A DNA stretch of 64,000 nucleotides. Source: Candidatus Pacearchaeota archaeon. GTDB lineage: Archaea > Nanobdellota > Nanobdellia > Pacearchaeales > GW2011-AR1. Of the stretch, positions 23,816-60,281 are shown piece after piece. Under the pieces are notes generated by a model. The model saw only the letters and a list, made by a program, of their open reading frames with translations, did no database searches and was not told the DNA's origin. The stretch's first letter is position 1. Each line of letters starts with the position of its first letter. Location of the stretch: contig JACPGZ010000017.1 in assembly GCA_016188895.1 (NCBI GenBank), positions 2,538-66,537 on the forward strand. The letters run 5' to 3'. The position numbers were made by a program, and so were the translations under genes.

Positions 23816-23866
23816 ACTTTTTCTAAACAGATATACTTAAAAGTCAATTAAATCCTATGTTTTTAT

Positions 23867-23961
23867 GCAGGAGTGCCAGAGCGGTCAAATGGGCTTGGCT
23901 AAGGCCTATGTAGAAACCAAGTGGCTTAGTGCCTGCGAAGGTTCGAATCCTTCCTCCTGCA
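23867..23961 (+). tRNA. class II tRNA, probably tRNA-Leu (A73 discriminator, long variable arm), with an ~11-nt intron in the anticodon loop; anticodon not resolved
   Basis: Acceptor GCAGGAG/CTCCTGC+A. T-arm GAAGG-TTCGAAT-CCTTC. Anticodon stem CTTGG/CCAAG encloses CTAAGG+CCTATGTAGAA+A. Variable arm TGGCTTAGTGCCTGC. Canonical parsing gives anticodon AAG, which is unusual. Confidence 0.55.
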
Positions 23962-23966
23962 TTGAA

Positions 23967-40483: not shown

Positions 40484-40677
40484 TATCTATATTCCAATTT
40501 TTTGGCTTTATTTAAGTTTGATATCTGGGCATCGTATTTCTTACAAAAAGCTTCATGCTCTTCTGCTAATTTTCTTTTTTTATATATTAATCTACAAAAC
40601 ATACACCTGAAATATTTTCTGCCTCTTATATTAACTTCTTTCACCATTTTATCACTCCACACAGCACGCCATTTCAT
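40483..40677 (-). CDS. small Cys/His protein (possible zinc finger)
   Basis: 64 aa, FRCMFC...H...FC. Confidence 0.3.
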   Translation of the reverse strand: MKWRAVWSDKMVKEVNIRGRKYFRCMFCRLIYKKRKLAEEHEAFCKKYDAQISNLNKAKKLEYR

Positions 40678-42061
40678 CTAAATTTTGGTCAAAGCTTTGA
40701 GCAACTTTCTTTATCATCTCGCTTAATGTAGGAAAAACATGGACTGTATCTCTGATATCGTAGATTGTCATTTTGTTCTTAATTGCATAAGTGGCTGTTG
40801 TTATTATATCGGCAGCCATTGGTCCAACAATATGAACTCCAATAACGACCTTTGTTTTAGGATCAAGCACCATTCTAATTAAACCACGAGTATCTTTAAT
40901 TGCTGCTGCTTTTTCTACATGGTCTAGTGTTATTGTTCTGCACAAGCAAACGTTATATTTTTTCATAAATTCTTCTTCTGTTATTCCAACTGCTGCAACT
41001 TCTGGAGAAGTGAACACAGCATGGGGAACTTCATTATAATTTATTTTTTTCTCTGCGTTTTCAAACATGTTTAGAATAGCAATATTTCCTTCTTTTGCTG
41101 CTGTTGTTTCAAGAGGCAATAATCCTGTAACATCGCCAGCAGCGTAAATATGCTTCTGAGAAGTTTGCATATACTCATTTACTTTGACAAATCCTCGCTC
41201 ATCAAGCTCGATATTGGCTTTTTCTGTTTCAATAAGTTTTGTATGTGGTTGTAAGCCAGCAGCCAGCATTAACATTTCAGCAGATAAAATATTTTCTTTT
41301 CCATCAATTTTTACATTTAATTCTATTCCGTTTTTTGTTTTCTTTACTTCTTGTATATCTGTTTTAGTATAAATTGTAATTCCTTCTTCTTCCAAATATT
41401 TTTGTAACTCCTCGCCAAGCATTGAATCAAATTTTGGTATAATTCTTTCTGAGCGCTGTAAAACTGTAACTTTAATTCCAAAATGATGGAAAATTTGAGA
41501 AAATTCCATACCAAGTGGACCACCACCAATTATAATTACAGATTCTGGTTTTTTCTTTAGATTGAAAATATTAACATTTGTTATGTAATCAATTTTATCA
41601 ATGCCTTTTATTGCCGGGACAAAAGTAGACGCTCCTGTTGCTATAAGAAAGTATTTTCCTTTGAATGTTTCATTGCCTACTTTTACAGTGTGTGAATCTA
41701 AAAAAGAGGCTAACCCTTCTTTAAAGTCAACATATTCTTGTTTTTCAATAACTTTCTCGTAATTTTTACTTCTAAACTTTTCAACCATTTCATGAGTTTC
41801 TTTTAATGCTTCTATAAAATCAGCTTTGCCTTCTAATTTTATTGCCCTAAACTGACCCCTCAATGCGTAAAAATACTCCTCTCCTTGATGAAGCATTATT
41901 TTTGACGGCACACACCCAACGTTTACGCATGTTCCGCCAAGAGGCAGGATTTTCTCATAGTTTATTAGAAGTGTTTTCTTTTTCAGCTTGTTTGCTGTGT
42001 TTGCTGCTGCAAAAGCCCCAGCTCCTCCGCCAATTATAATTAAATCATATTCCTTATCCAT
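40652..42061 (-). CDS. merA: mercuric reductase-like FAD pyridine-nucleotide-disulfide oxidoreductase (no N-terminal HMA domain)
   Basis: LGGTCVNVGCVPSK redox-active disulfide. C-terminal vicinal Cys pair (MACCVE) typical of MerA rather than Lpd. Confidence 0.7.
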   Translation of the reverse strand: MDKEYDLIIIGGGAGAFAAANTANKLKKKTLLINYEKILPLGGTCVNVGCVPSKIMLHQGEEYFYALRGQFRAIKLEGKADFIEALKETHEMVEKFRSKNYEKVIEKQEYVDFKEGLASFLDSHTVKVGNETFKGKYFLIATGASTFVPAIKGIDKIDYITNVNIFNLKKKPESVIIIGGGPLGMEFSQIFHHFGIKVTVLQRSERIIPKFDSMLGEELQKYLEEEGITIYTKTDIQEVKKTKNGIELNVKIDGKENILSAEMLMLAAGLQPHTKLIETEKANIELDERGFVKVNEYMQTSQKHIYAAGDVTGLLPLETTAAKEGNIAILNMFENAEKKINYNEVPHAVFTSPEVAAVGITEEEFMKKYNVCLCRTITLDHVEKAAAIKDTRGLIRMVLDPKTKVVIGVHIVGPMAADIITTATYAIKNKMTIYDIRDTVHVFPTLSEMIKKVAQSFDQNLDEMACCVE

Positions 42062-42392
42062 CTTTAATCACTCCGCAATTTTCTAGTCTTTCTTTGTATT
42101 TCCGAATGTGTTTATCAAATAAATCAACTATTGGAATTATGGTTTCTTCATCAAGAGAATATTCTCTGAAATTGCCATTTTGGGTTACTTTTACAAATCC
42201 GCAATGCTCCAAACATCTAAGATTATGAGATACTCTGCTTTGTTCAAATCCCGTCTTTTCACATATTTCTGTAACTGTGAGAGGTTTCTTTCTTAATAGC
42301 TGAATAATTTCCAATCTCGTGTAATTGGAAAATGCTTTGAAGAATAACCTGTGAAGATTATCCATCTGATGAATTTGTTGTAGTTTAGGCAT
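42054..42392 (-). CDS. ArsR/SmtB-family metalloregulator
   Basis: HTH ...LTVTEICEKTGFEQSRVSHNLRCLEHCGFV. Translationally coupled to the merA-like gene. Confidence 0.7.
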   Translation of the reverse strand: MPKLQQIHQMDNLHRLFFKAFSNYTRLEIIQLLRKKPLTVTEICEKTGFEQSRVSHNLRCLEHCGFVKVTQNGNFREYSLDEETIIPIVDLFDKHIRKYKERLENCGVIKDG

Positions 42393-42442
42393 ATGATAAA
42401 GTTATCATATAGACTATTTAAATGTTTTGTTATGCTTTAAAA

Positions 42443-42892
42443 TTAAAATTCGCATCCACTTATAGCAGATAATCTCTCAAATGTCTGAACCTGTGGATAG
42501 AATTCGTTATTTATCTCCCATGTTGGTGTAACGCCTATTCCTTTTCTATCGCATAATTCTTTATTCTCTGAACACTTTACATAATTAAGATATTGCTTTG
42601 AATTGCCAAAAAAATTTAATTGCTTTGCTGTATATTGGCAGAAATCATTTCCATATACTACAGCGCCTTTTTCAGCCAGGCATTTTGCAAATGCGTCATA
42701 GTCGCCTGGTTTTTTCATGTATGAAAAAACAGAGGCTACAGAGAATATTCCGATTAATATTATTAATGATACTATCGCATATTTTCTGAAATTTGTTTTT
42801 TTAACTGGAGAAGAATGTTTTGCTTGAGCGTGCTGACTTAAAGCTTCTTCTGAATCAAAGCTACGATTACAAATTTGACATATGCTTGCCAT
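42443..42892 (-). CDS. membrane protein with N-terminal cytoplasmic C2H2 zinc finger, one TM, and an extracytoplasmic thioredoxin-like domain
   Basis: CQICNRSFDSEEALSQHAQAKH (C2H2). TM helix IVSLIILIGIFSVASVF. ...VVYGNDFCQYTAKQ...GIGVTPTW is thioredoxin-fold-like (VKOR-partner type). Confidence 0.5.
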   Translation of the reverse strand: MASICQICNRSFDSEEALSQHAQAKHSSPVKKTNFRKYAIVSLIILIGIFSVASVFSYMKKPGDYDAFAKCLAEKGAVVYGNDFCQYTAKQLNFFGNSKQYLNYVKCSENKELCDRKGIGVTPTWEINNEFYPQVQTFERLSAISGCEF

Positions 42893-42911
42893 TTTTCAAA
42901 AATTTTAATGA

Positions 42912-43073
42912 TTAACGACCGCATCCGCCGCCGCCATATTGGCTTGGCACTGATTGTGGTGCTACTGCAGCTCCTGATATCTTGTCTGAATTGTCATTGC
43001 GCAGACTATTTATACCAAAAACAACTACAGCAAGTATCAATATTACAAGCAAGATAACAACTGTTTTGTCCAT
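42912..43073 (-). CDS. small signal/TM peptide ending in GGGGCGR (53 aa)
   Basis: MDKTVVILLVILILAVVVFG... low-complexity tail ...QYGGGGCGR-stop. Below the ORF-track threshold. Confidence 0.3.
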   Translation of the reverse strand: MDKTVVILLVILILAVVVFGINSLRNDNSDKISGAAVAPQSVPSQYGGGGCGR

Positions 43074-43115
43074 ATTAACCTCCTTTCATGTTTCTCATTT
43101 TAATATATCACATAG

Positions 43116-43547
43116 TTATTTAAATATTTGTTTATTTTTTAATTTATCTTTGAGCAAAAATAACATGCTTAAGAAGACAATGCTACCCCCTATTATCCAG
43201 AAGAATATAGAATAATCTTGGAAAAATGGTGTGCCTGCTATAATTATGCCTGCATTAAGTATTATCATATTTTTTGAGATGCATCTGCTTCTGAAATAAA
43301 ATACTAATGCTGTTGCTAAAAGCAAAAGGGCTGCAATCCAAAAAGGAACAGCTACTTTTTGAAGGAATAACAAAGGCATGCCTACAATTGTTATCCCAAT
43401 AACAGATAGCAGGGCAATAATGCCTAAGCAGACATTATGGCAGACTTGATAGCCTCCTAAGAAGCTCAAAACTCCTGATAATCCACTTGATATTCCAATT
43501 GTTTTTTCTTTTAAATTTGATTTTTTCATCTTAATGATCCTTGGCAA
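43116..43547 (-). CDS. 4-TM membrane protein with CxxxC in TM1 (possible MerT-like metal transporter)
   Basis: GGYQVCHNVCLGIIALLS followed by three further TM helices. Confidence 0.4.
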   Translation of the reverse strand: MPRIIKMKKSNLKEKTIGISSGLSGVLSFLGGYQVCHNVCLGIIALLSVIGITIVGMPLLFLQKVAVPFWIAALLLLATALVFYFRSRCISKNMIILNAGIIIAGTPFFQDYSIFFWIIGGSIVFLSMLFLLKDKLKNKQIFK

Positions 43548-44295
43548 AATCAGTTATTGAATTTAATTGTTGTTCAAGAGAGCCATTTCCATCTGTTATT
43601 AAAATTTTATCTAAATCATTAAAGACATAATTTCTGTAATCTGAAATTTCCTTTCCATTGACATATGCTCTTATTCCTTGTGGAAATTCTAATTCAATGC
43701 TGTCAAAGAGTATCCATAAAGGAACTCCTGTTGCATGCATATGTAAGACACTTGAAGCGTCTTCTTTGTTTAGATTATCATCTAAATGAAGAAAACTACT
43801 TTTCATATAATATTTTTCATTTGCAAAATTTATTGTATTTCCATTAACATATACTTTAATATCAGCATGAATATGCTCTGAGCCTAAAATTCCTATAGTT
43901 GATTTTGAATCCATATTGCATTGCATTTGCCCTGAATCTATGCATTGTTCAACAGGCATGCCACAAGCATCACATTTTCCATCATTATCTTTGTCCATAA
44001 ACTGCTTTGCAAGCTCTATGTCAAAGGGTGTAAGAGACATGCGACTCATTCTTCCTGCCATAGGATTAGAAGCTGCTCCTGTAATCTTTTGCGCTAAGAA
44101 TAAAGATTTAGAGGCATAAAAAAGTGCTGATATGGCTACTATGAATACGAATATTATAAAGCCTGTAATTAATTTATCAGCCATGCTTTTATTATCTTTA
44201 ACTGTGCTGACTACTTCCTTATTTTCCATTACTTCATTTTTATCTTGGATTTTTTCTTCTGGAATTATCATTTTATCCTCTTGATTCATATTCAA
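43531..44295 (-). CDS. membrane-anchored protein with extracytoplasmic Cys-rich segment and HxH motifs
   Basis: N-terminal TM. DGKCDACGMPVEQCIDSGQMQC, then EHIHADIKVYVNG...VLHMHATG...WILFDSI. Paralogous pattern to the 44273 gene. Confidence 0.4.
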   Translation of the reverse strand: MNMNQEDKMIIPEEKIQDKNEVMENKEVVSTVKDNKSMADKLITGFIIFVFIVAISALFYASKSLFLAQKITGAASNPMAGRMSRMSLTPFDIELAKQFMDKDNDGKCDACGMPVEQCIDSGQMQCNMDSKSTIGILGSEHIHADIKVYVNGNTINFANEKYYMKSSFLHLDDNLNKEDASSVLHMHATGVPLWILFDSIELEFPQGIRAYVNGKEISDYRNYVFNDLDKILITDGNGSLEQQLNSITDFAKDH

Positions 44296-44941
44296 TAACT
44301 ATTTCGTCTTTGTCTTGCATAATATAATTCTCAAATTCTGTGTTTTCTTCTCCACCAACATACATCTTTAATTCACCTTTGTCTGTGCAATAATCAAAAA
44401 TACATGAAGAACTAAACTGCTTATCCCACACATAAAAGAAATATCCTAAAGTAAGTGTTTCTGGTTTTTTGCTTGGATTATTATTTTCTAAGTGTATAGT
44501 GCCATCGCTCTCATGTGTATGAGTTGGGGACATTCTCATTCCGCTAAGACCTGTATCTATAATTTTTCCAATAGTAATTCCTATTCCTACAGGAATTAGT
44601 TGTTCATCTCCGTCAATAATAATCTTTAATTTTGGATGCCAATGCACTGCCCCTTGAGGAATCTTCTGGAGACTTTCATTAGATAAGATTATATTAAGTC
44701 CGTCATTATTGTTATTTGAAGTTTTATCTTTTCGCACAAGATATACTCCAAAAATAATGAGTATTATAACAATGGCAATTATCCAATTTCTTATCTTCTT
44801 TTTGTTTTGCGGAAAAAGTGAAGTTGATGGTTTAATGGATTGTTTTGTATCTCCATAATGTTTTGCTTTATTATGCATTGCTAAAGCATCTGCTGTTGAA
44901 AATTCTCGATTATTGCATTTTTCACATTTATAATCTGCCAT
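44273..44941 (-). CDS. membrane protein: N-terminal C2H2 zinc finger, one TM, extracytoplasmic His-rich (HxH) domain
   Basis: YKCEKCNNREFSTADALAMHNKAKH (C2H2). TM NWIIAIVIILIIFGVYLV. AVHWHPKLKIIIDG...MSPTHTHESDGTIHLE...LGYFFYVWD. Confidence 0.45.
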   Translation of the reverse strand: MADYKCEKCNNREFSTADALAMHNKAKHYGDTKQSIKPSTSLFPQNKKKIRNWIIAIVIILIIFGVYLVRKDKTSNNNNDGLNIILSNESLQKIPQGAVHWHPKLKIIIDGDEQLIPVGIGITIGKIIDTGLSGMRMSPTHTHESDGTIHLENNNPSKKPETLTLGYFFYVWDKQFSSSCIFDYCTDKGELKMYVGGEENTEFENYIMQDKDEIVIEYESRG

Positions 44942-44943
44942 TT

Positions 44944-45417
44944 TTATGATGTATCTACATTAGTACCATATGGATGAATTAATTTCCATCCCTGAATGAT
45001 ATCTCCTTGCCTGAATTTAAGTGTAAATTTATCGCTAAATTGTCTTTTGCTTCCTTCGCTAAGAATAAATTCAACTGAATATTCAACTGATGCTGTTTCT
45101 CCATCATTTGAAATCTCTTTTATATTTATGACATTGATATTATCTATTCCTTGCAAGGCTGCAAAATTCCTAAATGTGGCTAAATCTTTAGCATTAGGGT
45201 CAAGCTTTTTGAAGCCATCTGAAAAAGTTGCGTACATATTTGCGTAATCCTTATTATTCCATGCTGTGAAATACTGCCTTACAACTTCTTCTGGTGATGG
45301 AAATGTATATGATTCTTGCTGGAGCTTCTTATTTCTTATTGTTACAAAAATGACGCCTAAAACAAAAATAATCATTATAATTATTAATCCAAAATACATT
45401 ATTTTTTTATTGAGCAT
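44944..45417 (-). CDS. NTF2/SnoaL-like domain protein with N-terminal TM anchor
   Basis: VRQYFTAWNNKDYANMYATFSD is an NTF2-like signature. Confidence 0.45.
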   Translation of the reverse strand: MLNKKIMYFGLIIIMIIFVLGVIFVTIRNKKLQQESYTFPSPEEVVRQYFTAWNNKDYANMYATFSDGFKKLDPNAKDLATFRNFAALQGIDNINVINIKEISNDGETASVEYSVEFILSEGSKRQFSDKFTLKFRQGDIIQGWKLIHPYGTNVDTS

Positions 45418-46531
45418 TATCTTCTACTACTTGGTTAGTAGCTAAATTTTTGTAAGTTCCTATAACCTCTGGACTCCGCATAACAAACCATCCATCACTC
45501 TCTACACTGCCAACATCATCCCATGCATTTACAAATGAGATATATACAGATGCGTCTGGCGAAACAATGATTATTGGAACTTTTGTTATTTTATATTTAG
45601 AAATTAACTCCTTGCCTTCTTTTGATGTTATATCATATGTATTTTCTTTATCTATATACATTCCAAATCTAAGAAGTATTTGTTTATTTATTGAGAGATC
45701 ATAACATTGTTGGCATGAACTATCTTTTAGCATTATTAATTCAACAAGCCCTGATATTTCGCCTGATGTTAGATTTCTATATGGAGGAACTGTAGAATGG
45801 ATTGCATAGAATCCATTTTTTTCTCTTGCATTTAGTTGAATTAGTAGTTGCTGTATGCTTGGATAGAAATTAATGTCTTGAGATATTAAAATAGCTGGGA
45901 CATGTTTTATATCAAATTTTTGGATAAGCTCTTGTCCTTCTTGCGAATTATATTCAACAAATCTCTCTTCTTTTACAAAAACACCTCCTTGTTTCAAACT
46001 CTCTGAAAATCCTGTTAGTGAAATACATTCTTTGCAAGAAGAATCAATAACATTAGTAATAGATACCTCGCCAACAATCTTATCAAGGGCATTATCATAA
46101 TAAGGTGGGCTTATTGATGTATATATTACGACATCTTCTTTTACATCGCCAATCTCATGCATATAGTTCATAACTTGCTCTTTATTAATCTCTCCGTTTA
46201 TAATTATTGTTGGCAATTTTTCAATAGAATATTTTTCTATCAGCTCTTGTCCTTCTAGAGAATTAATCTCAATTTCTTGCTCTTTTGTTATCTTAACATT
46301 TTGCTTTTTAAGGTCATTCAGTGCATTTTCAACATCATAGCAATTAGCGCAATCTGATAATAATTTTATTACTTCTAATTCAGCTGGTTTACTTTGTTCT
46401 TCTGCAATCTCTTTAGAATCTTTAACCTTGCTTATTCGTGATTGAAGTATAAAAACATTAATTACAGAGAATAAAACAACAAATATCATCACAACATGCA
46501 AGTATCTACTAATAAAGTTTTCTTTCTCCAT
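45407..46531 (-). CDS. membrane-anchored protein with three tandem thioredoxin/glutaredoxin-like domains (CxxC x3)
   Basis: Three ~110-aa repeats, each with CxxC (CANC, CKEC, CQQC) and a cis-Pro-like motif (KLPTII, HVPAIL, KVPIII). N-terminal TM. Confidence 0.55.
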   Translation of the reverse strand: MEKENFISRYLHVVMIFVVLFSVINVFILQSRISKVKDSKEIAEEQSKPAELEVIKLLSDCANCYDVENALNDLKKQNVKITKEQEIEINSLEGQELIEKYSIEKLPTIIINGEINKEQVMNYMHEIGDVKEDVVIYTSISPPYYDNALDKIVGEVSITNVIDSSCKECISLTGFSESLKQGGVFVKEERFVEYNSQEGQELIQKFDIKHVPAILISQDINFYPSIQQLLIQLNAREKNGFYAIHSTVPPYRNLTSGEISGLVELIMLKDSSCQQCYDLSINKQILLRFGMYIDKENTYDITSKEGKELISKYKITKVPIIIVSPDASVYISFVNAWDDVGSVESDGWFVMRSPEVIGTYKNLATNQVVEDNAQ

Positions 46532-47548: not shown

Positions 47549-48103
47549 TTACTTGTTTAGTATATTGCAAGCCTCGCAGTGCCCTGTATAAATACTTTCT
47601 GCTTTAAGGAATAAGGCAAGCCCTAATAATCCTATTGATGATATCTTGAAAACAGATGAGTATTGGGTTAAGAAAGATGTTGGAATATTAAGAAGGGTAG
47701 AGCCAAGTGCAACAACCACAATTCCTTGGCAAACAGGGCATATTGCTCCAAAAAATCCAGCTAATCCTCCGCCAAATCCACCAATAGATGATATAGAAGA
47801 TGAGCGAGTAATATTTTTCTTTTCATATATGAAAAGAACTATGAGAATAGATGCAAATATTGTTATTGCTGCAATAAACACATAATCAAATATACTGACA
47901 GCTGACATCCTGCTAATTCCAAAATCTATGACAGGGATTCTCCATAAACCATATAAAAAGGAGTATGATACTAGAAAAATTAAGATAGTGATGAGCAGAT
48001 TTTTCCTGTGTTGCTTCTCATTCAAAATACTAATAGCATGTTTTATTGCTCCTTCTCCTTTAAATTTGTCTTTCATTTTCTTTTGTTTGTTTTCAATAGC
48101 CAT
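47549..48103 (-). CDS. CPxC-motif multi-TM protein, paralog A
   Basis: GGFGGGLAGFFGAICPVCQGIVVVALGSTLL in a TM helix, C-terminal HCEAC. Confidence 0.45.
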   Translation of the reverse strand: MAIENKQKKMKDKFKGEGAIKHAISILNEKQHRKNLLITILIFLVSYSFLYGLWRIPVIDFGISRMSAVSIFDYVFIAAITIFASILIVLFIYEKKNITRSSSISSIGGFGGGLAGFFGAICPVCQGIVVVALGSTLLNIPTSFLTQYSSVFKISSIGLLGLALFLKAESIYTGHCEACNILNK

Positions 48104-48576
48104 ATTATTATTGCTATAACAACGAGGATTATTAGTATTAATACAAGCAAGACTATAGGATTATTATAATTTGCTCCTTGTTGATTAAACATGCCTTCCA
48201 TCATGCCACTAGAACCTATCATCCCTCTGTTCATCATCATGCTCATCATTCCTGTGCTCATTGCATCATGCTCTCCGCAATAAAATGCCTTGCCCATGCT
48301 GACATGAATTTGTTTCAAACTTGCTGATCCCTCGCCCCCCATCATCTCGTCCATCTGCTCATGTAACTCGCCAGGATGCATCTGCTCCATGTAATACTCG
48401 CCAATTACTTCGAGCTGATCGTCTGTGAGCTGGTTGCATTGAATTTTGCTCTTAATTAACTCTTCTGCCTTTGCAAAATCTTCTTCGCCATGAGCGCTTA
48501 CAATTGCAATTCCTATTAAGAAGATTGCAATAAATACACCTATTTTTGCTTTCATTTTATTCTTATGTTTTATCAT
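48073..48576 (-). CDS. Met-rich secreted/membrane-anchored protein, paralog 2
   Basis: Same architecture as the 33474 gene. Central 56 codons nearly identical at the DNA level. Confidence 0.6.
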   Translation of the reverse strand: MIKHKNKMKAKIGVFIAIFLIGIAIVSAHGEEDFAKAEELIKSKIQCNQLTDDQLEVIGEYYMEQMHPGELHEQMDEMMGGEGSASLKQIHVSMGKAFYCGEHDAMSTGMMSMMMNRGMIGSSGMMEGMFNQQGANYNNPIVLLVLILIILVVIAIIIWLLKTNKRK

Positions 48577-48716
48577 ATTACTATTTTAAATATTAATAAA
48601 TATCTATATATAACTTTTAGGGTTGAAACCATCATAGCTAAAAGGCTTAAAAACCTTGTATATGCAGAAAGGAACGTTTATAAGCCAAATTAATTAATAA
48701 GTTAATTAGTATTTTG

Positions 48717-49223
48717 TTAAAAATTCTCTAAAAAATGCAATGTATAGGTTTTTCCTTTTTTTATTCTTTTAACAAGTTTTTTCTTTTCAAGTTGAGTTAC
48801 AATCTGGCTTGTTTTTGCTTTTGATAAATCAATGCGCAATTTTAATGTATTCTGGGTTATACCATCTTGCTCTCTAATTGATTTTAATGCTTTTTTTTCA
48901 TATTCATCAAGCCCTTTTGAAAGTATAGAGAATTTTTCCTCGCTAAGTTTTTTATTTTTATCATCTTCAAGTCTCTTCAAAATGCTTTCTTCTCCTTTAG
49001 AAAAGAACACAAGATAAATGCCAAGTGAAAGCAGGAATGCTAGTATGCCTATTACTGCATTTGATAATGTAAAGTAGTTTTGTATTCTTATACATTGAGA
49101 ATTTTGAGGAAAACATCCTGAATTGGTGCCGAGTACATTGAGTCTGCTTATAATGCCAATTATAATAATCCCGAGAAGAACACTAAGGATAATAAGTGCT
49201 ATACCTAACCTTTTATTTAGCAT
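48717..49223 (-). CDS. membrane-anchored winged-helix (MarR-like) transcription regulator
   Basis: Two N-terminal TM helices with a CxxxxxxC loop, then ...ALKSIREQDGITQNTLKLRIDLSKAKTSQIVTQLEKKKLVKRIKKGKTYTLHF (wHTH). Confidence 0.5.
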   Translation of the reverse strand: MLNKRLGIALIILSVLLGIIIIGIISRLNVLGTNSGCFPQNSQCIRIQNYFTLSNAVIGILAFLLSLGIYLVFFSKGEESILKRLEDDKNKKLSEEKFSILSKGLDEYEKKALKSIREQDGITQNTLKLRIDLSKAKTSQIVTQLEKKKLVKRIKKGKTYTLHFLENF

Positions 49224-49522
49224 TTACTTAGATTAATTATCAAAATATATAAACTTTATGCAATTATGTTTGTTGAACAGTAATGATACCATGTTGTTCA
49301 TTTCAATTGAGTTTGAGTTTTACTTGGGGGTCGCTGTCAGGTGGCTCCGCCACATATTGCCTCACTTCGTGAGAAATTATGTTTGAATAGCATGCTTTGT
49401 GATTTCAATATTGCAGCTATGATGCTCCTTGCACCACTTTTTTCATTTTTCTGCCCATCCTTTTTCTTTGTATGCAAAATTACATTCAGGATAGGTATAC
49501 AATTTGTTTTTTGTGACTTTGG

Positions 49523-50038
49523 TCATTTACACCACCTACATTTATTCTCTATAGATTTTGAAGTAGTGTATATAGATAGTATAATCAATGCAATTGCCAA
49601 CAAGAGAATCGGTGTTCTATATTCAACTATGAATGTTGTTGCAGTGCTTCCTATAACAGCCGCGATAATTACAAGGCAAGCAGGACAACCTGCAACCGCG
49701 CCTAATCCGCCAAAAAATCCGCTGGATATGCTGCCACCTGCCTCAACTATTGGTATTGGTTGAGCTTTATTTGTCTTAATTTCTTTTCGCAGATAAAGCT
49801 GCATGGCTATCCACATACCAAATAAAATTGTTAGTAGAATAATGAGGGTAACTTGTAAGGAACTGTTGGATAATACCGATTTAATCATCCCTATATCAGT
49901 AAGGATCTTCGGAGTGATAAAAGAAAATGAAATAATATACAGTGATAGCATTACCAATGCCGAGAATACAGCTATAAAGAAATATCTCCTTTTAGATAAG
50001 ACAATATACATGACTTTCAATATATTTATCTCTTTCAT
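49523..50038 (-). CDS. CPxC-motif multi-TM protein, paralog B
   Basis: SGFFGGLGAVAGCPACLVIIAAVIGST and C-terminal CRWCK. Paralog of the 47549 gene. Confidence 0.45.
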   Translation of the reverse strand: MKEINILKVMYIVLSKRRYFFIAVFSALVMLSLYIISFSFITPKILTDIGMIKSVLSNSSLQVTLIILLTILFGMWIAMQLYLRKEIKTNKAQPIPIVEAGGSISSGFFGGLGAVAGCPACLVIIAAVIGSTATTFIVEYRTPILLLAIALIILSIYTTSKSIENKCRWCK

Positions 50039-50060
50039 ATTCTCATATTCATCATTCTAC

Positions 50061-50204
50061 CTTAAGCAAGTTCTTTTAATAGTAATTTTCGTGCTTCTGG
50101 AGAAAGCAGCTTCTTCAACTCTTTTGTACAAATGCAAATACAACATTCGCAACAAGGGCATTTTCCAAAATTGCAGCATGGTTCTCTTTTCTCTTTCTTT
50201 TCAT
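50061..50204 (-). CDS. metallothionein-like Cys-rich small protein (47 aa)
   Basis: MKRKRKENHAAILEKCPCCECCICICTKELKKLLSPEARKLLLKELA. RBS GGAGGT upstream. An ATG 4 nt upstream in another frame gives MNEKKEKREPCCNFGK... which would join this frame if the A5 run were A4. Confidence 0.4.
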
Positions 50205-50277
50205 TCATTTTCTTTACCTCCCTTATAATAGTATATTTTATATACTTAATGAATTATATAAACTAGGCAGTTTCCAA

Positions 50278-50634
50278 ATGGTAAGCATAATAACAACAGA
50301 CGAAAATTGTAAAATGAAATCTGATAGTGGCCATTGCCCCAGACCGTTAGAATCTGTTTCTGATTTTCTCAGTAAGAAATGGGCAATCTCTATTATAATA
50401 ACTATAGGTAATTTTGGTAAATTAAGATTTAATAACATCATAGCAAGACTTGAAAATGCTACTCCAAAAATTCTTACCGAACGCTTGAAAGAATTAGGAA
50501 AAAATGGCATAATTCAACGGCGTTATTATAATGAGATACCTCCGAAAGTAGAATACTCTCTGACAAAGGTTGGAAAAGATTTAATGAATTCTCTTCGTCC
50601 TCTAATTAATTGGGCTGAGAAGAGAATTAAATAA
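50278..50634 (+). CDS. HxlR-family transcriptional regulator
   Basis: CP...SVSDFLSKKWAISIIITIGNFGKLRFNNIIARLENATPKILTERLKELGKNGIIQRRYYNEIPPKVEYSLTKVGKDL. Confidence 0.7.
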   Translation: MVSIITTDENCKMKSDSGHCPRPLESVSDFLSKKWAISIIITIGNFGKLRFNNIIARLENATPKILTERLKELGKNGIIQRRYYNEIPPKVEYSLTKVGKDLMNSLRPLINWAEKRIK

Positions 50635-50670
50635 TCAATAAATTTAAATTAGCAAAATATATACCTTTTT

Positions 50671-51336
50671 ATGCATAAAGAAGCCGGAGTTGAAGATTAC
50701 TTAAAAGACATTGCTGGTCACAGGATTCTTACCAGAGATGAGGAGATTGAACTAACAAATAAGATTAGAAATGGCGATAATTATGCAAGAGAAACAATGA
50801 TTAATTCTAATCTTAAATTAGTGTTTAGTATTGCAAAACATTATGCACACAGAAAGATTGGATTAAATGATGCAATTGAAGAAGGCAACAAAGGCTTGAT
50901 TAAAGCTGTTGAGAGATTTGATCCCAGCAGAGGATATAAATTTTCTACATATGCTACATATTGGATTAGACAAGCTATAGAAAGGGTGTTAGGGCAGGAA
51001 GAAAAAAGGCTTAAAAGATTAGAGTTTATTTTTTATAATATGGAAGATAAGAATAACTTTGTAGACAGCATAGCTGATAATTCTCAAAGCCATGAAGAAG
51101 AGTTATTGAAAAATGAAAGATATTCTATATTAGAAGATTTGATGAATATGCTTGATGACAGAGCCAGGACAATTATTGAAATGAGATACGGACTTAATGG
51201 CTACCATCCTATGTCGCTTGTTGAGATTGGAAAGAGAATATATTTATCTAGGGAGAGAGTAAGACTAATTCAATATGAAGCTGAGCAAAAATTGAGGGGA
51301 ATTGCTAAAAATAGGGGTTTATCTGATATTGTTTAG
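50671..51336 (+). CDS. bacterial-type sigma-70 family RNA polymerase sigma factor (regions 1.2/2 and 4 only)
   Basis: Region 2: [39 protein letters not shown] (compare E. coli RpoD [39 protein letters not shown]). Region 4.2: [28 protein letters not shown]. Confidence 0.75.
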   Translation: [221 protein letters not shown]

Positions 51337-51435: not shown

Positions 51436-52239
51436 CTATGAGAAAAAAGAAGAGACGGAATCTGGTGATGCAATGATGTCTTCTGGCGAAGATATGTAAC
51501 CGGGAATAAAGGTTAAATTATCTGGGCTGAATTTTGAAATATCCTTCAAGTCTAGTGGTGTAACTATTCTTGATGACAAAGAATTAAGTGTATATGGCAA
51601 TCGTATCAGATGGATTCTGCCATGACTAACCCATGGATCAATTGCAAATTTTTTATATTTCTTGTTCAAAGAATTGCGCTGTTTTAATGTCAGGTAATAA
51701 GCATTCTTGTCAAGAACATGAACGTGAGCGCCTCTTCCTGAAAATACAACTTTAACATCGCTGAATTGTTTTTTCAGTTCAAGATAAAAATTATATGTGT
51801 TCTGTATTGCAATTTTTGAGCATGCCTCACAAAAATCATGTGCAGATTTTTTTGCGCATTCCTTGCATTTAATGTTTTCAGGGTCAATGTCAAAAACCAA
51901 TTCCTGGCCAAGATAATTAGTTGACAGATGTGCTTTCTTGAAATCAAAATTTTTAATACATAGATTAGCATCTTTGTATATGTCTCTGTCATAATAGACA
52001 TCTTCTGGCAGATAAAAAATCAATTTTTTCCTAAGCTCTTTTAAAGATAGATTCGGCTTGAAATAAATTAATTTTCCTTTTTTTGATTTGTCTTTGATAA
52101 TTCCAGAGTCTGTTCCGCAGTCAATTGCAAAAAAGCATGGCTTAAATGGAAGCTGATTTAACCATGATTCAACTTTTTTAATATCAAACTCCTTTTCATA
52201 GAATTCTTTTCTCTCTTGAAGAGTTGCTGGGCGGAACAT
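51436..52239 (-). CDS. priS: DNA primase small subunit PriS (archaeo-eukaryotic primase)
   Basis: AEP motifs LVFDIDPE (DxD) and SGRGAHVHV. Zn knuckle CKECAKKSAHDFCEAC. Confidence 0.7.
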   Translation of the reverse strand: MFRPATLQERKEFYEKEFDIKKVESWLNQLPFKPCFFAIDCGTDSGIIKDKSKKGKLIYFKPNLSLKELRKKLIFYLPEDVYYDRDIYKDANLCIKNFDFKKAHLSTNYLGQELVFDIDPENIKCKECAKKSAHDFCEACSKIAIQNTYNFYLELKKQFSDVKVVFSGRGAHVHVLDKNAYYLTLKQRNSLNKKYKKFAIDPWVSHGRIHLIRLPYTLNSLSSRIVTPLDLKDISKFSPDNLTFIPGYISSPEDIIASPDSVSSFFS

Positions 52240-52487: not shown

Positions 52488-52892
52488 CTAATTTATCAAA
52501 CCTTCTTTTATTAAATCTGGAATTAATCCTTTTTCATTCTCTTCGATCATAGGATACTTCTTTGTAAGAAAGTCATCTTTTCCATACCAAACAATAGATT
52601 CAATTTCCTTATCTGCTTTTGGTTCTCCTTTTGCTTCTACTAAAAAACATTTTGTTTCTGTCATCCAATTATTGCTATAAGGAGATTGCATAAAATACTC
52701 TCTGAAAAATACCATTGATTGTAGATCTAAATTTATTTCTTCTTTTAATTCCCTTTTAAGAGTCTCTTCTTCAGATTCCCCTTCTTCTCTCTTTCCACCT
52801 GGAGTCCAAAGTTCAGAATAACCTTTTCCTTTAACTAAAAGAAGTTTATTATTTTTTATTATAAGAGCTACAATCCTATGCCTAATGTTCAT
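52488..52892 (-). CDS. NUDIX hydrolase
   Basis: Nudix box GGKREEGESEEETLKRELKEEINL. Confidence 0.75.
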   Translation of the reverse strand: MNIRHRIVALIIKNNKLLLVKGKGYSELWTPGGKREEGESEEETLKRELKEEINLDLQSMVFFREYFMQSPYSNNWMTETKCFLVEAKGEPKADKEIESIVWYGKDDFLTKKYPMIEENEKGLIPDLIKEGLIN

Positions 52893-57110: not shown

Positions 57111-57770
57111 ATGTTTAGGTGGCTGTTTAGTGGCAAAAAAGAGATAGATAAGATAAAAGAAGATACTCGAAGAGCTTTTGAATCTGTGAAAAATGATATG
57201 GATAAGGCTGGCAAATGGTTTAAACACCTGTCCAAAACTGATTCTGACCAGGAAGATAAGATTAGTGAGCTAAAATCAAAAATATCGACGCTGGAAAAAG
57301 ATATTGAAAAACTGCATAAAATTGTTTTGTTGAACAAAAGTGAAAATTTTAGACAGGTGTTTAGACAGCCTTCAACAGCTGTCTATAGACAAGCACCTGT
57401 CCAAGCTGTCCAAACAGGTGTTGAAAACGCTGTCCAAACAGGTGTTGAAGGCTATTTTTTGATTGATTTAAATAACTTGTCTGTGATGGAAAGAGCAATT
57501 GTTTATTTATTGTTGAATAGTGACATGAAATTAAGCTATGAGGATATTGCTGCAATGCTTGGAAAAAGCAGGTCAACAATAAGAAGCCAAATAAGTGTGA
57601 TAAAACAAAAAAGTGAGAATTTAATAAAAGAGTATATTGAAAAAAACGGTAAGAAAAGAGTATATATTCCTGATGAAATCAAAGAAAAGATACTTAAAAA
57701 TAAGAAAGTGAAGGAGATTAAACGAAAAAATAAGAAAAATAGTGAGAAAGAAGAGGTGAGTTATGCGTAA
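57111..57770 (+). CDS. coiled-coil / repeat / C-terminal HTH protein (paralog of the 58025 gene)
   Basis: N-terminal coiled-coil. Central repeat (VQAVQTGVENAVQTGVEG) encoded by iteron-like DNA. C-terminal HTH LSYEDIAAMLGKSRSTIRSQISVIKQK. Confidence 0.4.
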   Translation: MFRWLFSGKKEIDKIKEDTRRAFESVKNDMDKAGKWFKHLSKTDSDQEDKISELKSKISTLEKDIEKLHKIVLLNKSENFRQVFRQPSTAVYRQAPVQAVQTGVENAVQTGVEGYFLIDLNNLSVMERAIVYLLLNSDMKLSYEDIAAMLGKSRSTIRSQISVIKQKSENLIKEYIEKNGKKRVYIPDEIKEKILKNKKVKEIKRKNKKNSEKEEVSYA

Positions 57771-59234: not shown

Positions 59235-60281
59235 GTGATATATTATTTTATGATGAAAGTATATAATGGTTTATCTAGAAATCAGGTAATTGAAATTCAT
59301 TCTTTTGTTATGAAAAAACGAAAAGATTTAGGATATGGACAAACAAGGATTTATAGATTAGTTAAGGAAAAATTTGGAGTTGAAATAAAAGAGAATACCC
59401 TATCTGGATGGATTTTTCGAGGAATAAAACCATTTGGAAATGAAAAAACTCAATTTAAACCTAAGCCAAGACCTCAAAAAGAAGAGCTTTACGAATTGTA
59501 TATCAATCAAAAACAAAGCTCTGAAAAAATAGCCAAGAAGTATGATGTTTCAACGATTATTGTAATTAATTGGCTTAAATCTTATAAAATTCCTACCAGA
59601 AATCATCTTGAGTCTATGCGTACTTTGGATGTAAGAAGACAACTTAGAGAAATAAAACTAAGAAGACCAACTAAAAAGTATAATGAATTAATTCCTGAGA
59701 AAGCGTATATTCTGGGGGTCTTATGTGGGGATGCTTGTTTATATAAAAAAACGATTAAATTAGAAATAAGGCGTGATGAAGATTTTATTGACGAATTTGT
59801 TAGATGTTTTGAGAAAGTTTATGGTTTAGAATATAATTATAAATATTATAAACCAAAAAATACATTTGTTGCACAGATTAATTCTGAAATCATATCTCAA
59901 GATATTATCAAATATGGTAATTTTAAAACCCGAAGTTGGGAAGTTCCAAAAGAAATAATAGAATCGAAAAATGAAAAGATTATTGGTTCTTATTTAAAAG
60001 GTTTTTATGATAGTGAGGGAAGTGTTTCACGTTGTGCAATAACTTCTTCTTCGATTAATAAAGATGGTCTAAGAAATATTGCTCTTTTATTGAAAAAATT
60101 GGGAATAGAAACAACTTTAAAAAGCTATGGAAATGGAAAATATTGTGTTTTGTATATATTTAGAAAGGGAAGATTTAAGATATTTAGGGAAAGAGTTGGG
60201 TTTACGATAAAAAGAAAATTGAATAAGATAGACGAAACTTTAAATACAGGTTTTTTTAGTAAAAGATCTATTGCTAATTAG
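59235..60281 (+). CDS. LAGLIDADG-family homing endonuclease (two-motif, free-standing) with N-terminal HTH region
   Basis: Two LAGLIDADG-like motifs: AYILGVLCGDACLY and YLKGFYDSEGSV. Confidence 0.65.
   Translation: MIYYFMMKVYNGLSRNQVIEIHSFVMKKRKDLGYGQTRIYRLVKEKFGVEIKENTLSGWIFRGIKPFGNEKTQFKPKPRPQKEELYELYINQKQSSEKIAKKYDVSTIIVINWLKSYKIPTRNHLESMRTLDVRRQLREIKLRRPTKKYNELIPEKAYILGVLCGDACLYKKTIKLEIRRDEDFIDEFVRCFEKVYGLEYNYKYYKPKNTFVAQINSEIISQDIIKYGNFKTRSWEVPKEIIESKNEKIIGSYLKGFYDSEGSVSRCAITSSSINKDGLRNIALLLKKLGIETTLKSYGNGKYCVLYIFRKGRFKIFRERVGFTIKRKLNKIDETLNTGFFSKRSIAN

What the first reader, a model, noticed from the sequence alone, without database searches (positions are those of the whole stretch)
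50671..51336. Bacterial-type sigma-70 factor encoded in an archaeal chromosome
The 221-aa protein has a region 2 nearly identical to bacterial RpoD ([16 protein letters not shown], the -10 recognition/core-binding helix) and a canonical region 4.2 HTH, but no region 3. The contig is unambiguously archaeal (L32e, L19e, L44e, RpoN/F/D, and PriS directly downstream at 51436), so this is not a chimeric bacterial contig. Archaea use TBP/TFB and have no bacterial core RNAP for a sigma to bind. The gene sits beside an HxlR regulator and a metal/redox island that is rich in bacterial-like genes. It could be an HGT relic, a virus- or plasmid-derived factor, or something repurposed, for example as a decoy or regulator.
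Basis: partly seen in the sequence, partly recalled or inferred. Interest (0 to 1): 0.8.

Follow-up and report, generated by a model that had tools for sequence, protein, structure and literature searches.

The report
Shortened bacterial sigma factor in DPANN archaeon
A real, native and selectively maintained bacterial-type sigma-70 gene that has lost its middle domain sits in the chromosome of a tiny Pacearchaeota-like archaeon; such genes in these archaea were reported in 2021, and what they do without a bacterial RNA polymerase is still unknown.

Summary
Window 50671..51336 (+) encodes a 221-aa sigma-70 family protein. Pfam scores are r1.2 33.6, r2 61.4 and r4 46.2 bits, with no r3. The contig is plainly archaeal (L32e, L21e, DUF655, Sec61-type SecY, Rpb3-like RpoD, PriS).

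It is not a chimera. Two independent assemblies carry an orthologue in the same gene order (DUF7343/MarR, sigma, PriS). GC and GC3 match the host. A host-type TATA box lies 28 nt before the ATG.

The gene is under purifying but relaxed selection (dN/dS 0.21-0.31, neighbours 0.05-0.17). It evolves faster than its neighbours and is patchily distributed.

Only five such proteins turned up in 1.84 billion representatives. They form one clade (NJ bootstrap 87/100) next to short Planctomycetota RpoD/SigA. All lack the globular sigma-3 domain and appear to keep a 3.2-like linker.

Residues that in bacteria bind core RNAP, melt the -10 element and read the -35 element are largely retained.

Novelty is limited. 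NCBI already annotates this protein, and Castelle et al. 2021 reported sigma-70 genes in DPANN, ruled out misbinning and left the mechanism open. The sigma-3-deleted Pacearchaeota-type clade appears undescribed.

My best guess is an accessory DNA-binding transcription regulator. A true interaction with archaeal RNAP is not excluded.

The parts
50671..51336 (+). Sigma-70 family gene, 221 aa: regions 1.2, 2, a 3.2-like linker and 4. It lacks region 1.1 and the globular sigma-3 domain.
   Evidence: ORF; Pfam and NCBIfam; identical to the NCBI protein P0001, 'sigma-70 family RNA polymerase sigma factor [Candidatus Pacearchaeota archaeon]'; AF2 model with pLDDT 85 whose best PDB matches are RpoS and SigA chains.
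50689..50778 (+). Region 1.2 (residues 7-36).
   Evidence: Pfam Sigma70_r1_2, 33.6 bits. Of the bacterially conserved columns, 97% are retained across the five-member archaeal clade.
50797..50991 (+). Sigma-2 domain (residues 43-107): regions 2.1-2.4, including the core-binding helix 2.2 and the -10 melting and recognition helix 2.3/2.4.
   Evidence: Pfam Sigma70_r2, 61.4 bits. The equivalents of sigma70 D403, G408, N409, G411, L412, A415, V416, F419, Y430, W434 and R441 are kept in 5/5 clade members; W433 is Y in 3/5; Q437 varies.
50992..51141 (+). Linker (residues 108-157) in place of sigma-3. It contains a region-3.2-like segment (RLEF..Y...FVDSIADN).
   Evidence: A gap of about 51-55 residues relative to bacterial relatives is shared by all five clade members. 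HMMER aligns residues 103-150 to RpoS 218-265. AF2 confidence is low over residues ~115-145.
51142..51297 (+). Sigma-4 domain (residues 158-209) with the region 4.2 helix-turn-helix (LSRERVRLI).
   Evidence: Pfam Sigma70_r4, 46.2 bits. The equivalents of sigma70 R584, E585, R586 and R588 are kept 5/5. Q589 is L in the window protein only.
50643..50650 (+). Archaeal-type TATA box (TTTAAATT) starting 28 nt upstream of the ATG. This implies a leaderless transcript made by TBP/TFB and archaeal RNAP.
   Evidence: Sequence. The same TTTAAA element at -27 to -30 occurs upstream of all five clade members despite different upstream genes. TATA-like hexamers peak at -30..-25 for the other genes in the window. 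No Shine-Dalgarno sequence is visible.
50278..50634 (+). HxlR-family regulator gene immediately upstream. It belongs to a two-gene insertion specific to this genome.
   Evidence: Pfam HxlR, 83.3 bits. It is absent between DUF7343 and sigma in L001 and L003.
49523..50038 (-). MerE-like CxxC membrane protein gene, the second gene of the window-specific insertion.
   Evidence: Pfam MerE, 23.5 bits. Absent at this position in L001 and L003.
48717..49223 (-). Membrane-anchored winged-helix (DUF7343/MarR-like) regulator gene, the conserved left-hand syntenic neighbour.
   Evidence: Pfam DUF7343, 35 bits, and MarR. It is 80-81% identical to the genes that flank sigma in L001 and L003.
51436..52239 (-). 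DNA primase small subunit (PriS) gene, the conserved right-hand syntenic neighbour, convergent with sigma.
   Evidence: Pfam DNA_primase_S, 36 bits. It is 72% identical to the gene that flanks sigma in L002.

Best explanation
SHOWN. The gene encodes a sigma-70 family protein of the RpoD/RpoS (group 1/2) sequence type. It has lost region 1.1 and the globular sigma-3 domain and keeps regions 1.2, 2, a 3.2-like linker and 4. It is a resident gene of a Pacearchaeota-like DPANN chromosome. It sits at the same chromosomal position in at least three related genomes and has host base composition. It is preceded by the organism's standard TATA box at -28, implying a leaderless mRNA. It is under purifying but relaxed selection, and it is patchily distributed, so it is accessory.

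INFERRED ORIGIN. There was one transfer from a bacterium carrying a short RpoD/SigA; Planctomycetota-type proteins are the nearest relatives. The sigma-3 deletion then occurred in, or just before, the archaeal clade.

INFERRED MECHANISM (my commitment, moderate to low certainty). The protein is made by the archaeal transcription machinery and acts as an accessory sequence-specific transcription regulator. Because it lacks the autoinhibitory region 1.1, it can bind DNA on its own. It would do so through the region 4.2 helix-turn-helix, and probably also through region 2.3/2.4, recognising a bipartite site. It would then modulate TBP/TFB/RNAP assembly, as other bacterial-type regulators do in archaea. 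The strong retention of the region 2.2 core-binding surface suggests it also still docks on a coiled-coil partner. The homologous clamp coiled-coil of archaeal RNAP is the obvious candidate, but that step is untested.
For: Identity.

Native and not chimeric: archaeal markers. The order [CxxC membrane][Met-rich][DUF7343]-sigma-PriS is reproduced in independent ENA and Logan assemblies. GC 0.326 and GC3 0.261 fall within the host range.

Expressed the archaeal way: TTTAAA at -28, conserved upstream of all five clade members, matching the genome-wide TATA peak at -30..-25.

Selection: NG86 dN/dS is 0.21-0.31. In the unsaturated pair (dS 0.48) it is 0.31, against 0.11 for DUF7343.

Clade: only P0001, P0002, P0003, P0124 and P0126 share the architecture among 1.84e9 representatives. 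NJ bootstrap is 87/100, and the sister group contains the Planctomycetota 275-aa RpoD/SigA proteins.

Functional surfaces: 82-97% of bacterially conserved columns are retained in regions 1.2, 2.1-2.3 and 4.1-4.2, against 70% in 2.4 and 40% in the linker. RERxR of region 4.2 is invariant.

Accessory status: archaeal loci with a 56-72% identical HerA-like gene lack sigma at that position.

Background: archaea routinely use bacterial-type regulators on a eukaryote-like basal machinery (abstract of PMC2995911). That sigma70 without region 1.1 binds promoter DNA on its own is my own knowledge (Dombroski et al. 1992).
Against: There is no direct evidence of DNA binding or of any target. Sigma70-consensus promoters are not enriched around the locus (86 found, 78.9 +/- 8.9 expected), and no conserved bipartite motif was identified.

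A pure DNA-binding-regulator model does not by itself explain two things: why exposed core-binding residues of region 2.2 (D403, E407, N409 equivalents) and the -10 melting aromatics (Y430, W433 as W or Y, W434) stay conserved over about one substitution per site, or why regions 1.2 and 3.2 are kept.

Only five sequences exist, four of them on contigs of 2.3 kb or less, so the rate and conservation statistics are thin. The donor inference rests on an NJ tree with long branches. Sigma is the fastest-evolving gene in its neighbourhood (46-49% identity, against 68-80% for neighbours), which is also compatible with waning function.
Confidence: 0.45

Rival explanations
1. It is a genuine RNAP-bound initiation or melting factor for the archaeal RNA polymerase. 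Sigma-2 would dock on the Rpo1 clamp coiled-coil, which is homologous to the bacterial beta-prime clamp helices and is the TFE/Spt5 site. The protein would capture or melt an AT-rich element, and the 3.2-like linker and sigma-4 would take ECF-like positions. It would act either as an alternative, TBP/TFB-independent initiation route or as a TFE-like helper or competitor.
For: Exposed residues that serve core binding (region 2.2) and non-template-strand capture (regions 1.2, 2.3) are retained in 5/5 or 4/5 clade members despite 41-49% overall identity. The specificity-determining positions vary (Q437 and T440 equivalents; Q589 in the window protein), which is the pattern seen among functional alternative sigmas. 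A 3.2-like linker is retained, about 40-50 residues long between sigma-2 and sigma-4 (residues 108-157 by the Pfam domain ends). From my own knowledge of ECF holoenzyme structures, that is comparable with ECF sigmas, which work without sigma-3. TFE-beta is absent from DPANN (PMC7289017). Selection is purifying.
Against: No sigma has ever been shown to bind an archaeal or eukaryotic-type RNAP. The beta flap tip helix that anchors sigma-4 has no clear archaeal counterpart (my own knowledge). The gene is dispensable, since it is patchy. Sigma70-type promoters are not enriched. Many of the conserved residues may be kept for folding. Nothing here tests binding.
Confidence: 0.15
2. It targets a bacterial RNA polymerase, that of a bacterial host or partner cell of this presumed episymbiont. 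This would be analogous to phage-encoded sigma factors that redirect host RNAP.
For: The full set of bacterial core-binding and promoter-recognition residues is retained. Castelle et al. 2021 explicitly leave open whether some DPANN have bacterial hosts. Reduced sigmas occur on phage-like contigs, for example P0179 on L040.
Against: No export route is known for the protein, and signal sequences were not analysed here. All experimentally known DPANN hosts are archaea (introduction of PMC8204110). Nothing in the window suggests a delivery system. The idea is entirely speculative.
Confidence: 0.07
3. It is a slowly decaying horizontally transferred relic with no current function.
For: It is the fastest-evolving gene of its block (46-49% identity, against 68-80% for neighbours). 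Its dN/dS is two to three times that of its neighbours. It has lost sigma-3, is patchily distributed and is very rare.
Against: dN/dS of 0.21-0.31 is well below 1. The ORFs are intact at similar lengths in all five lineages. The TATA box is conserved at the right distance. The functionally critical sigma residues are selectively retained, while the linker is free to vary. GC is fully ameliorated, so the gene has been resident for a long time without being lost.
Confidence: 0.12
4. Assembly or binning artefact: a bacterial fragment joined to an archaeal contig.
For: None beyond the bacterial affinity of the protein sequence.
Against: Both junctions are reproduced in independent assemblies from other samples. 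GC and GC3 are flat across the region. The gene has an archaeal promoter and is leaderless. Castelle et al. ruled out misbinning for DPANN sigma genes in general.
Confidence: 0.01

Closest known systems
Sigma-70 genes of DPANN archaea (protein family fam00359 of Castelle et al. 2021, Front Microbiol 12:660052, PMC8204110)
   Same: Both are bacterial-type sigma-70 genes on bona fide DPANN contigs with no recognisable anti-sigma factor and an unknown mechanism. The window protein is itself labelled Candidatus Pacearchaeota in NCBI.
   Different: The paper says these genes are 'particularly prevalent in Woesearchaeota' and gives no architecture. I could not check whether the five-member sigma-3-deleted clade belongs to fam00359, because the family is not in the held supplements. 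No named Woesearchaeota sigma appeared among the closest 120 hits, so the DPANN sigmas may have more than one origin.
Short RpoD/SigA-type sigma factors of Planctomycetota (about 275 aa; e.g. P0004, P0017, P0098)
   Same: They are the closest sequence relatives (35-40% identity full-length, up to about 60% over region 2). Like the window protein they have region 1.2 and lack region 1.1. They form the sister group in the NJ tree.
   Different: They keep the sigma-3 domain (Pfam PF04539), which is absent from the archaeal clade as a shared gap of about 51-55 residues. They sit in bacteria with a cognate core RNAP.
RpoS (sigma-S) of Proteobacteria (PDB 5ipl_F, 7vf9_F)
   Same: It is the best NCBIfam model (TIGR02394, 197.9 bits), the best PDB sequence match (E 3e-43) and the best Foldseek match. 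Region 2 is about 70% identical.
   Different: The score is about half the equivalog cut-off (378.7). Sigma-3 is missing. There is no Crl or RssB context, and the host is archaeal. It is not an RpoS orthologue.
Group 4 (ECF) sigma factors
   Same: They have the same minimal architecture, sigma-2 plus linker plus sigma-4 without a sigma-3 domain. This shows that such an architecture can form a working holoenzyme (own knowledge). TIGR02937 is matched end to end.
   Different: By sequence the protein is group 1/2-like, not ECF-like. Region 1.2 is present, and no adjacent anti-sigma gene exists. The resemblance comes from convergent reduction.
Phage-encoded sigma-70 family factors
   Same: They are sigma factors encoded outside a bacterial chromosome, and some have a reduced sigma-3. 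P0179 (235 aa) is an example, on a 177-kb contig I read as phage-like from its gene content.
   Different: Viral relatives are only 27-36% identical over most of the protein, and nearly all keep sigma-3. No close viral relative was found, and the window locus has no viral genes.

Membership tests
Sigma-70 family (Pfam Sigma70_r2 + Sigma70_r4; NCBIfam TIGR02937) | Sigma-2 domain scoring above the curated cut-off | tested here: met
   PF04542, 61.4 bits against 24.
Sigma-70 family (Pfam Sigma70_r2 + Sigma70_r4; NCBIfam TIGR02937) | Sigma-4 domain (region 4.2 HTH) scoring above the curated cut-off | tested here: met
   PF04545, 46.2 bits against 24.1. TIGR02937, 108.5 bits against 42.9, covering residues 39-209.
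Sigma-70 family (Pfam Sigma70_r2 + Sigma70_r4; NCBIfam TIGR02937) | Fold of sigma-2 and sigma-4 as in solved holoenzyme structures | tested here: met
   AF2 model with pLDDT 85. The top Foldseek PDB hits are all sigma chains (probability 1.00, E down to 2e-13). The TM-score is only about 0.47, because the relative domain placement and the missing sigma-3 differ.
Sigma-70 family (Pfam Sigma70_r2 + Sigma70_r4; NCBIfam TIGR02937) | Binds bacterial core RNAP and directs promoter-specific initiation | not testable with these tools
   This is a biochemical property. Only residue conservation could be examined.
Sigma-70 family (Pfam Sigma70_r2 + Sigma70_r4; NCBIfam TIGR02937) | Cognate bacterial-type core RNAP (beta, beta-prime) encoded by the same genome | not testable with these tools
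   Only 64 kb of the genome is available. The window encodes an archaeal Rpb3-like RpoD subunit and no bacterial RNAP subunit was seen among the ORFs scanned.
Group 1/2 sigma factors (RpoD / RpoS equivalogs) | Region 1.2 present | tested here: met
   PF00140, 33.6 bits against 22.
Group 1/2 sigma factors (RpoD / RpoS equivalogs) | Sigma-3 domain (regions 3.0/3.1) present | tested here: not met
   There is no PF04539 hit. A gap of about 51-55 residues is shared by the five clade members.
Group 1/2 sigma factors (RpoD / RpoS equivalogs) | Score above the NCBIfam equivalog cut-off | tested here: not met
   RpoS TIGR02394 scores 197.9 against 378.7. The RpoD models score 144-156 against 555-572.
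Group 4 (ECF) sigma factors | Two-domain sigma-2/sigma-4 architecture without sigma-3 | tested here: met
Group 4 (ECF) sigma factors | ECF-type sequence affiliation (no region 1.2; closest to ECF models) | tested here: not met
   Region 1.2 is present. The top models and hits are RpoS, RpoD and SigA, not ECF.
Group 4 (ECF) sigma factors | Adjacent cognate anti-sigma factor gene (typical, not universal) | tested here: not met
   The neighbours are HxlR, a MerE-like protein, DUF7343/MarR, PriS and NUDIX. None has an anti-sigma domain hit. Castelle et al. also found none in DPANN.
MzaA (sigma component of the MZA anti-phage system) | Full-length match to the roughly 700-aa MzaA model, with partner genes | tested here: not met
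   NF041931 scores 150 bits against a cut-off of 800. The PADLOC hit covers only profile positions 411-513 of 683. No Mza partner genes are nearby.
DPANN sigma-70 family fam00359 (Castelle et al. 2021) | Encoded on a contig whose other genes are phylogenetically DPANN or archaeal | tested here: met
   The neighbours of the second subclade are Nanoarchaeota/Pacearchaeota-like.
DPANN sigma-70 family fam00359 (Castelle et al. 2021) | Clusters in that protein family | not testable with these tools
   The family's members are not in the held supplementary files.

The most novel reading that the evidence does not exclude
A bacterial sigma factor, stripped of regions 1.1 and 3, has been domesticated as a working partner of an archaeal (Pol II-like) RNA polymerase. 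Sigma-2 would dock on the Rpo1 clamp coiled-coil, the TFE/Spt5 site. The protein would use its retained -10-type melting pocket and region 4.2 HTH to open or select promoters in a DPANN lineage that lacks TFE-beta. That would be the first natural hybrid of the bacterial and archaeo-eukaryotic initiation systems.
Probability: 0.12. Interest if true: 0.92.

Novelty: new variant of a known kind. Interest (0 to 1): 0.45.

Why it matters
Sigma factors and TBP/TFB are the textbook dividing line between bacterial and archaeal/eukaryotic transcription initiation. A sigma gene kept under selection in an organism that has only an archaeal RNAP therefore poses a real question. Either sigma domains can be re-used as ordinary DNA-binding regulators, or the sigma-2/clamp-coiled-coil interface is more universal than thought.

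The existence of such genes in DPANN is already published, so this locus is not a discovery in itself. What it offers is a compact, well-defined test case. The protein is 221 aa and sigma-3-deleted, with a known promoter and known orthologues for comparison. The set of retained and relaxed residues is clear enough to turn the open question of Castelle et al. into direct binding and transcription experiments.

Tried and rejected
1. Chimera or misbinning: rejected on synteny in independent assemblies, base composition and promoter type.

2. Viral or plasmid origin: the single-protein viral scan found nothing. The profile viral scan found only 27-36% identical, mostly sigma-3-containing phage sigmas. 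No integrase, transposase or viral genes lie near the gene.

3. Anti-phage MZA system: there is only generic partial homology to MzaA.

4. Anti-sigma partner: no neighbour has an anti-sigma domain. DUF7343 is a membrane-anchored winged-helix protein that is syntenic only in the PriS-linked subclade. It is not found next to P0124 or P0126.

5. Bacterial-type promoters as targets: the sigma70 consensus is not enriched (86 found, 78.9 +/- 8.9 expected). The orthologous intergenic sequence available was too short for motif discovery.

6. Taxonomic spread in reference genomes: the GTDB species-representative scan found no close relative. The metagenome scan only re-found L001.

7. P0121-P0123, the top 'relatives' in the exhaustive search, are artefacts with duplicated sigma segments. 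P0122 is E. coli-type RpoS with an internal duplication. I excluded them.

8. Castelle supplementary tables: fam00359 is not present in the held files.

9. The first tree script timed out. I repeated it with fewer taxa.

10. The dS values between the window and its relatives are saturated (1.2-3.2), so only the L001/L002-L003 pair (dS 0.39-0.48) gives a trustworthy dN/dS.
Full report
OBSERVATION. Pfam gives Sigma70_r2 at 61.4 bits (cut-off 24), Sigma70_r4 at 46.2 bits (24.1) and Sigma70_r1_2 at 33.6 bits (22). There is no Sigma70_r3 match. NCBIfam's sigma-70 superfamily model TIGR02937 is passed (108.5 against 42.9). The best-scoring specific models are RpoS and RpoD types, but each reaches only about half or less of its equivalog cut-off (RpoS 197.9 against 378.7). 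An AlphaFold2 model built on a 54-sequence alignment is confident for residues 5-110 and 150-214 (mean pLDDT 85) and poor in the linker at about 115-145. Its best matches among solved structures are sigma-S and SigA chains in holoenzyme complexes.

IS THE CONTIG ARCHAEAL, AND IS THE GENE NATIVE? The window carries ribosomal proteins L32e, L21e and an L5e-type L18. It also carries DUF655, a SecY with a Sec61-type plug, an Rpb3-like RpoD and PriS. Its two tRNA genes are about 95 nt long and so probably contain introns. The identical protein is in NCBI as 'sigma-70 family RNA polymerase sigma factor [Candidatus Pacearchaeota archaeon]' on a 110,457-bp contig.

GC is flat at 0.31-0.35 across 48-53 kb. 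The gene's GC (0.326) and GC3 (0.261) lie inside the range of its neighbours and of the ribosomal genes.

The decisive evidence is synteny. The two closest relatives are P0002 (49% identity) and P0003 (46%), from other samples (ENA ERZ1292623; Logan SRR12113383 and SRR12113384). They lie in the same gene order: CxxC membrane protein, Met-rich protein, DUF7343/MarR membrane regulator, sigma, then a convergent PriS. Both borders of the sigma gene are thus reproduced independently, and a chimera is excluded for practical purposes. Relative to those genomes, the window has a two-gene insertion (a MerE-like membrane protein and HxlR) between DUF7343 and sigma.

HOW IT IS EXPRESSED. A TTTAAATT element begins 28 nt upstream of the ATG (50643-50650). 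The same TTTAAA element lies at -27 to -30 upstream of all five members of the clade, although their upstream genes differ. No Shine-Dalgarno sequence is visible. Across the window, TATA-like hexamers pile up at -30..-25 from start codons, for example at PriS, NUDIX and DUF7343. The gene therefore has this organism's ordinary promoter geometry. The inference is transcription by TBP/TFB and archaeal RNAP into a leaderless mRNA.

SELECTION AND DISTRIBUTION. Between the window and its syntenic relatives the neighbours are 80% (DUF7343), 72% (PriS) and 68% (Met-rich) identical, but sigma only 46-49%. Nei-Gojobori dN/dS is 0.21-0.31 for sigma, 0.05-0.11 for DUF7343, 0.17 for PriS and 0.15 for the Met-rich protein. 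In the only unsaturated comparison (L001 against L002/L003, dS 0.39-0.48) it is 0.31 against 0.11. The gene is thus maintained by selection, but two to three times less tightly than its neighbours.

It is also rare. A scan of one genome per GTDB species found no close relative, and a metagenome scan only re-found L001. An exhaustive HMM search of 1.84 billion representatives, followed by a profile search, found just five proteins of this architecture: P0001, P0002, P0003, P0124 and P0126. They score 349-377 bits, and the next proteins score 238 or less.

P0124 and P0126 sit upstream of a HerA-like ATPase gene. The named homologues of that gene are almost all Nanoarchaeota or Pacearchaeota. Related archaeal loci with a 56-72% identical HerA-like gene have no sigma at that position; these are L036, L038 and L039, which carry RFC, FEN1, deoxyhypusine synthase and TYW2. 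The gene is therefore an accessory, patchily distributed component of Pacearchaeota-like DPANN genomes.

ORIGIN. The nearest non-clade relatives are short (about 275 aa) RpoD/SigA-type sigmas of Planctomycetota, which have regions 1.2, 2, 3 and 4. In a neighbour-joining tree (219 columns, 51 taxa) the five archaeal proteins are monophyletic in 87 of 100 bootstraps and sit beside a group containing those Planctomycetota proteins. The branches are long. Distances within the clade (0.76-1.04; 0.33 between the closest pair, P0002 and P0003) are as large as distances to bacteria (0.91-1.0), so the donor assignment is tentative.

All five share the same gap of about 51-55 residues, which removes the end of region 2.4 and regions 3.0/3.1. 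HMMER aligns window residues 103-150 to RpoS region 3.2 with moderate confidence. The best description is 'sigma-3 domain deleted, 3.2-like linker kept', not simply 'no region 3'. Viral sigmas are more distant (27-36% identity) and mostly keep sigma-3. A different short sigma, P0179, lies on a 177-kb contig that I read as phage-like from its gene content.

WHICH SURFACES ARE KEPT. I took the columns that are at least 85% conserved among 312 bacterial relatives and asked how often the five archaeal proteins keep the bacterial residue:
- Region 1.2: 97%.
- Region 2.1: 82%.
- Region 2.2: 87%.
- Region 2.3: 93%.
- Region 2.4: 70%.
- Linker: 40%.
- Region 4.1: 85%.
- Region 4.2: 86%.

In E. coli sigma70 numbering (the numbering is from my own knowledge, anchored on Y430 and R584), these residues are kept in 5 of 5: D403, G408, N409, G411, L412, A415, V416, F419, Y430, W434, R441, R584, E585, R586 and R588. 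W433 is Y in three members. The -12-reading Q437 is R or Y in two members. Q589 is L only in the window protein.

So the residues that in bacteria bind the beta-prime clamp helices, capture the flipped -10 bases and read the -35 element remain constrained. The positions that set promoter specificity drift. This pattern is what one sees among functional alternative sigmas. It is the most intriguing result here, although some of these residues may be kept for folding alone.

MECHANISM. Nothing computational can show what the protein does. My best-supported reading (confidence about 0.45) is an accessory transcription regulator. It is expressed by the archaeal machinery. Lacking the autoinhibitory region 1.1, it would bind DNA directly through region 4.2 and probably region 2, and so influence TBP/TFB/RNAP assembly like the many bacterial-type regulators of archaea (abstract of PMC2995911).

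The rivals are these:
- A true partner of archaeal RNAP through the conserved clamp coiled-coil (0.15). This would explain the retention of regions 2.2, 2.3, 1.2 and 3.2. It is made more thinkable by the ECF precedent for sigma-3-less holoenzymes and by the absence of TFE-beta in DPANN (PMC7289017).
- A factor aimed at a bacterial partner's RNAP (0.07). Castelle et al. leave bacterial hosts open.
- A decaying relic (0.12). This is disfavoured by dN/dS, the intact ORFs and the conserved promoter.
- An artefact (0.01).

Sigma70-type promoter consensus is not enriched near the locus (86 found, 78.9 +/- 8.9 expected). No anti-sigma domain is present in the neighbours. The MzaA defence-system hit is only generic sigma homology.

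COMPARISON WITH WHAT IS KNOWN, AND NOVELTY. Castelle et al. 2021 (PMC8204110) already reported sigma-70 genes in DPANN archaea, 'particularly prevalent in Woesearchaeota'. They ruled out misbinning, found no anti-sigma factors and stated that the mechanism is unclear. NCBI already names this very protein a sigma-70 family factor. The headline 'bacterial sigma in an archaeon' is therefore known.

What appears to be new, within the limits of my literature searches, is the definition of a small Pacearchaeota-type clade with these properties:
- It is group 1/2-like in sequence but has lost sigma-3, an ECF-like architecture reached by reduction.
- It has a host-type leaderless promoter.
- It evolves under relaxed but real constraint.
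- It is patchily distributed.
- Its core-binding and melting residues are selectively retained.

I rate it a new variant of a known kind, with an interest of 0.45. It is a good, compact test case for an open question rather than a new discovery.

Noticed in passing
window 57111..57770 (+): A 219-aa ORF has a marginal Pfam Sigma70_r4 hit (24.6 bits against a 24.1 cut-off), overlapping HTH_ParB and HTH_11 hits at residues ~120-176, and a coiled-coil-like N-terminus. It may be a stand-alone sigma-4-like HTH protein 6 kb from the sigma gene, or simply a generic HTH.
   Followed up: no
window 49224..50670: Compared with the syntenic relatives L001 and L003, this genome has a two-gene insertion between DUF7343 and sigma: a MerE-like CxxC membrane protein (49523..50038, -) and HxlR (50278..50634, +).
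   Followed up: yes
window 47549..49223 (-), with 30885..33305 and 40652..46531: There is a metal/redox-flavoured neighbourhood. It includes a CxxC membrane protein, a Met-rich secreted or membrane protein (MxxM-type runs, reminiscent of Cu-binding proteins), a membrane-anchored DUF7343/MarR regulator with a CxxxxxxC pair, a thioredoxin-fold protein, a Pyr_redox_2 flavoprotein and an HMA-domain P-type ATPase. The first three are conserved next to sigma in L001 and L003.
   Followed up: partly
window 11662..11757 and 23866..23962 (+): Two tRNA genes of about 95 nt (Rfam tRNA 49 and 47 bits; ARAGORN calls only the second, tRNA-Leu AAG). Their length implies introns or long variable arms, consistent with an archaeal genome.
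   Followed up: no
window 59235..60281 (+): A free-standing 348-aa ORF with a LAGLIDADG_3 domain lies directly upstream of an Lhr-type helicase gene (60322..62907). It may be a homing endonuclease or an intein remnant.
   Followed up: no
window 52488..52892 (-): The NUDIX hydrolase gene downstream of PriS also matches the PADLOC candidate defence model PDC-S07 (48.7 bits). This is probably generic NUDIX similarity.
   Followed up: no
proteins P0121, P0122, P0123 (protein database): The top non-clade hits of the exhaustive search are artefactual proteins with duplicated sigma segments. P0122 is E. coli-type RpoS with residues of regions 1.2-2.4 repeated. These look like assembly or gene-call chimeras in the public collection.
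   Followed up: partly
L040 6001..6708 (P0179): A 235-aa sigma with regions 1.2, 2 and 4 and a truncated region 3 lies on a 177-kb contig. The contig is full of small unannotated ORFs, plus peptide deformylase, Cpn10, NYN and NUDIX genes, which looks like a huge phage. Sigma-3 reduction has therefore happened independently elsewhere.
   Followed up: partly
L038 1078..3718: In one Nanoarchaeota-like relative, the HerA-like ATPase gene is followed in the same orientation by a 670-aa ORF with an intein-splicing domain. This suggests an intein-interrupted HerA.
   Followed up: no
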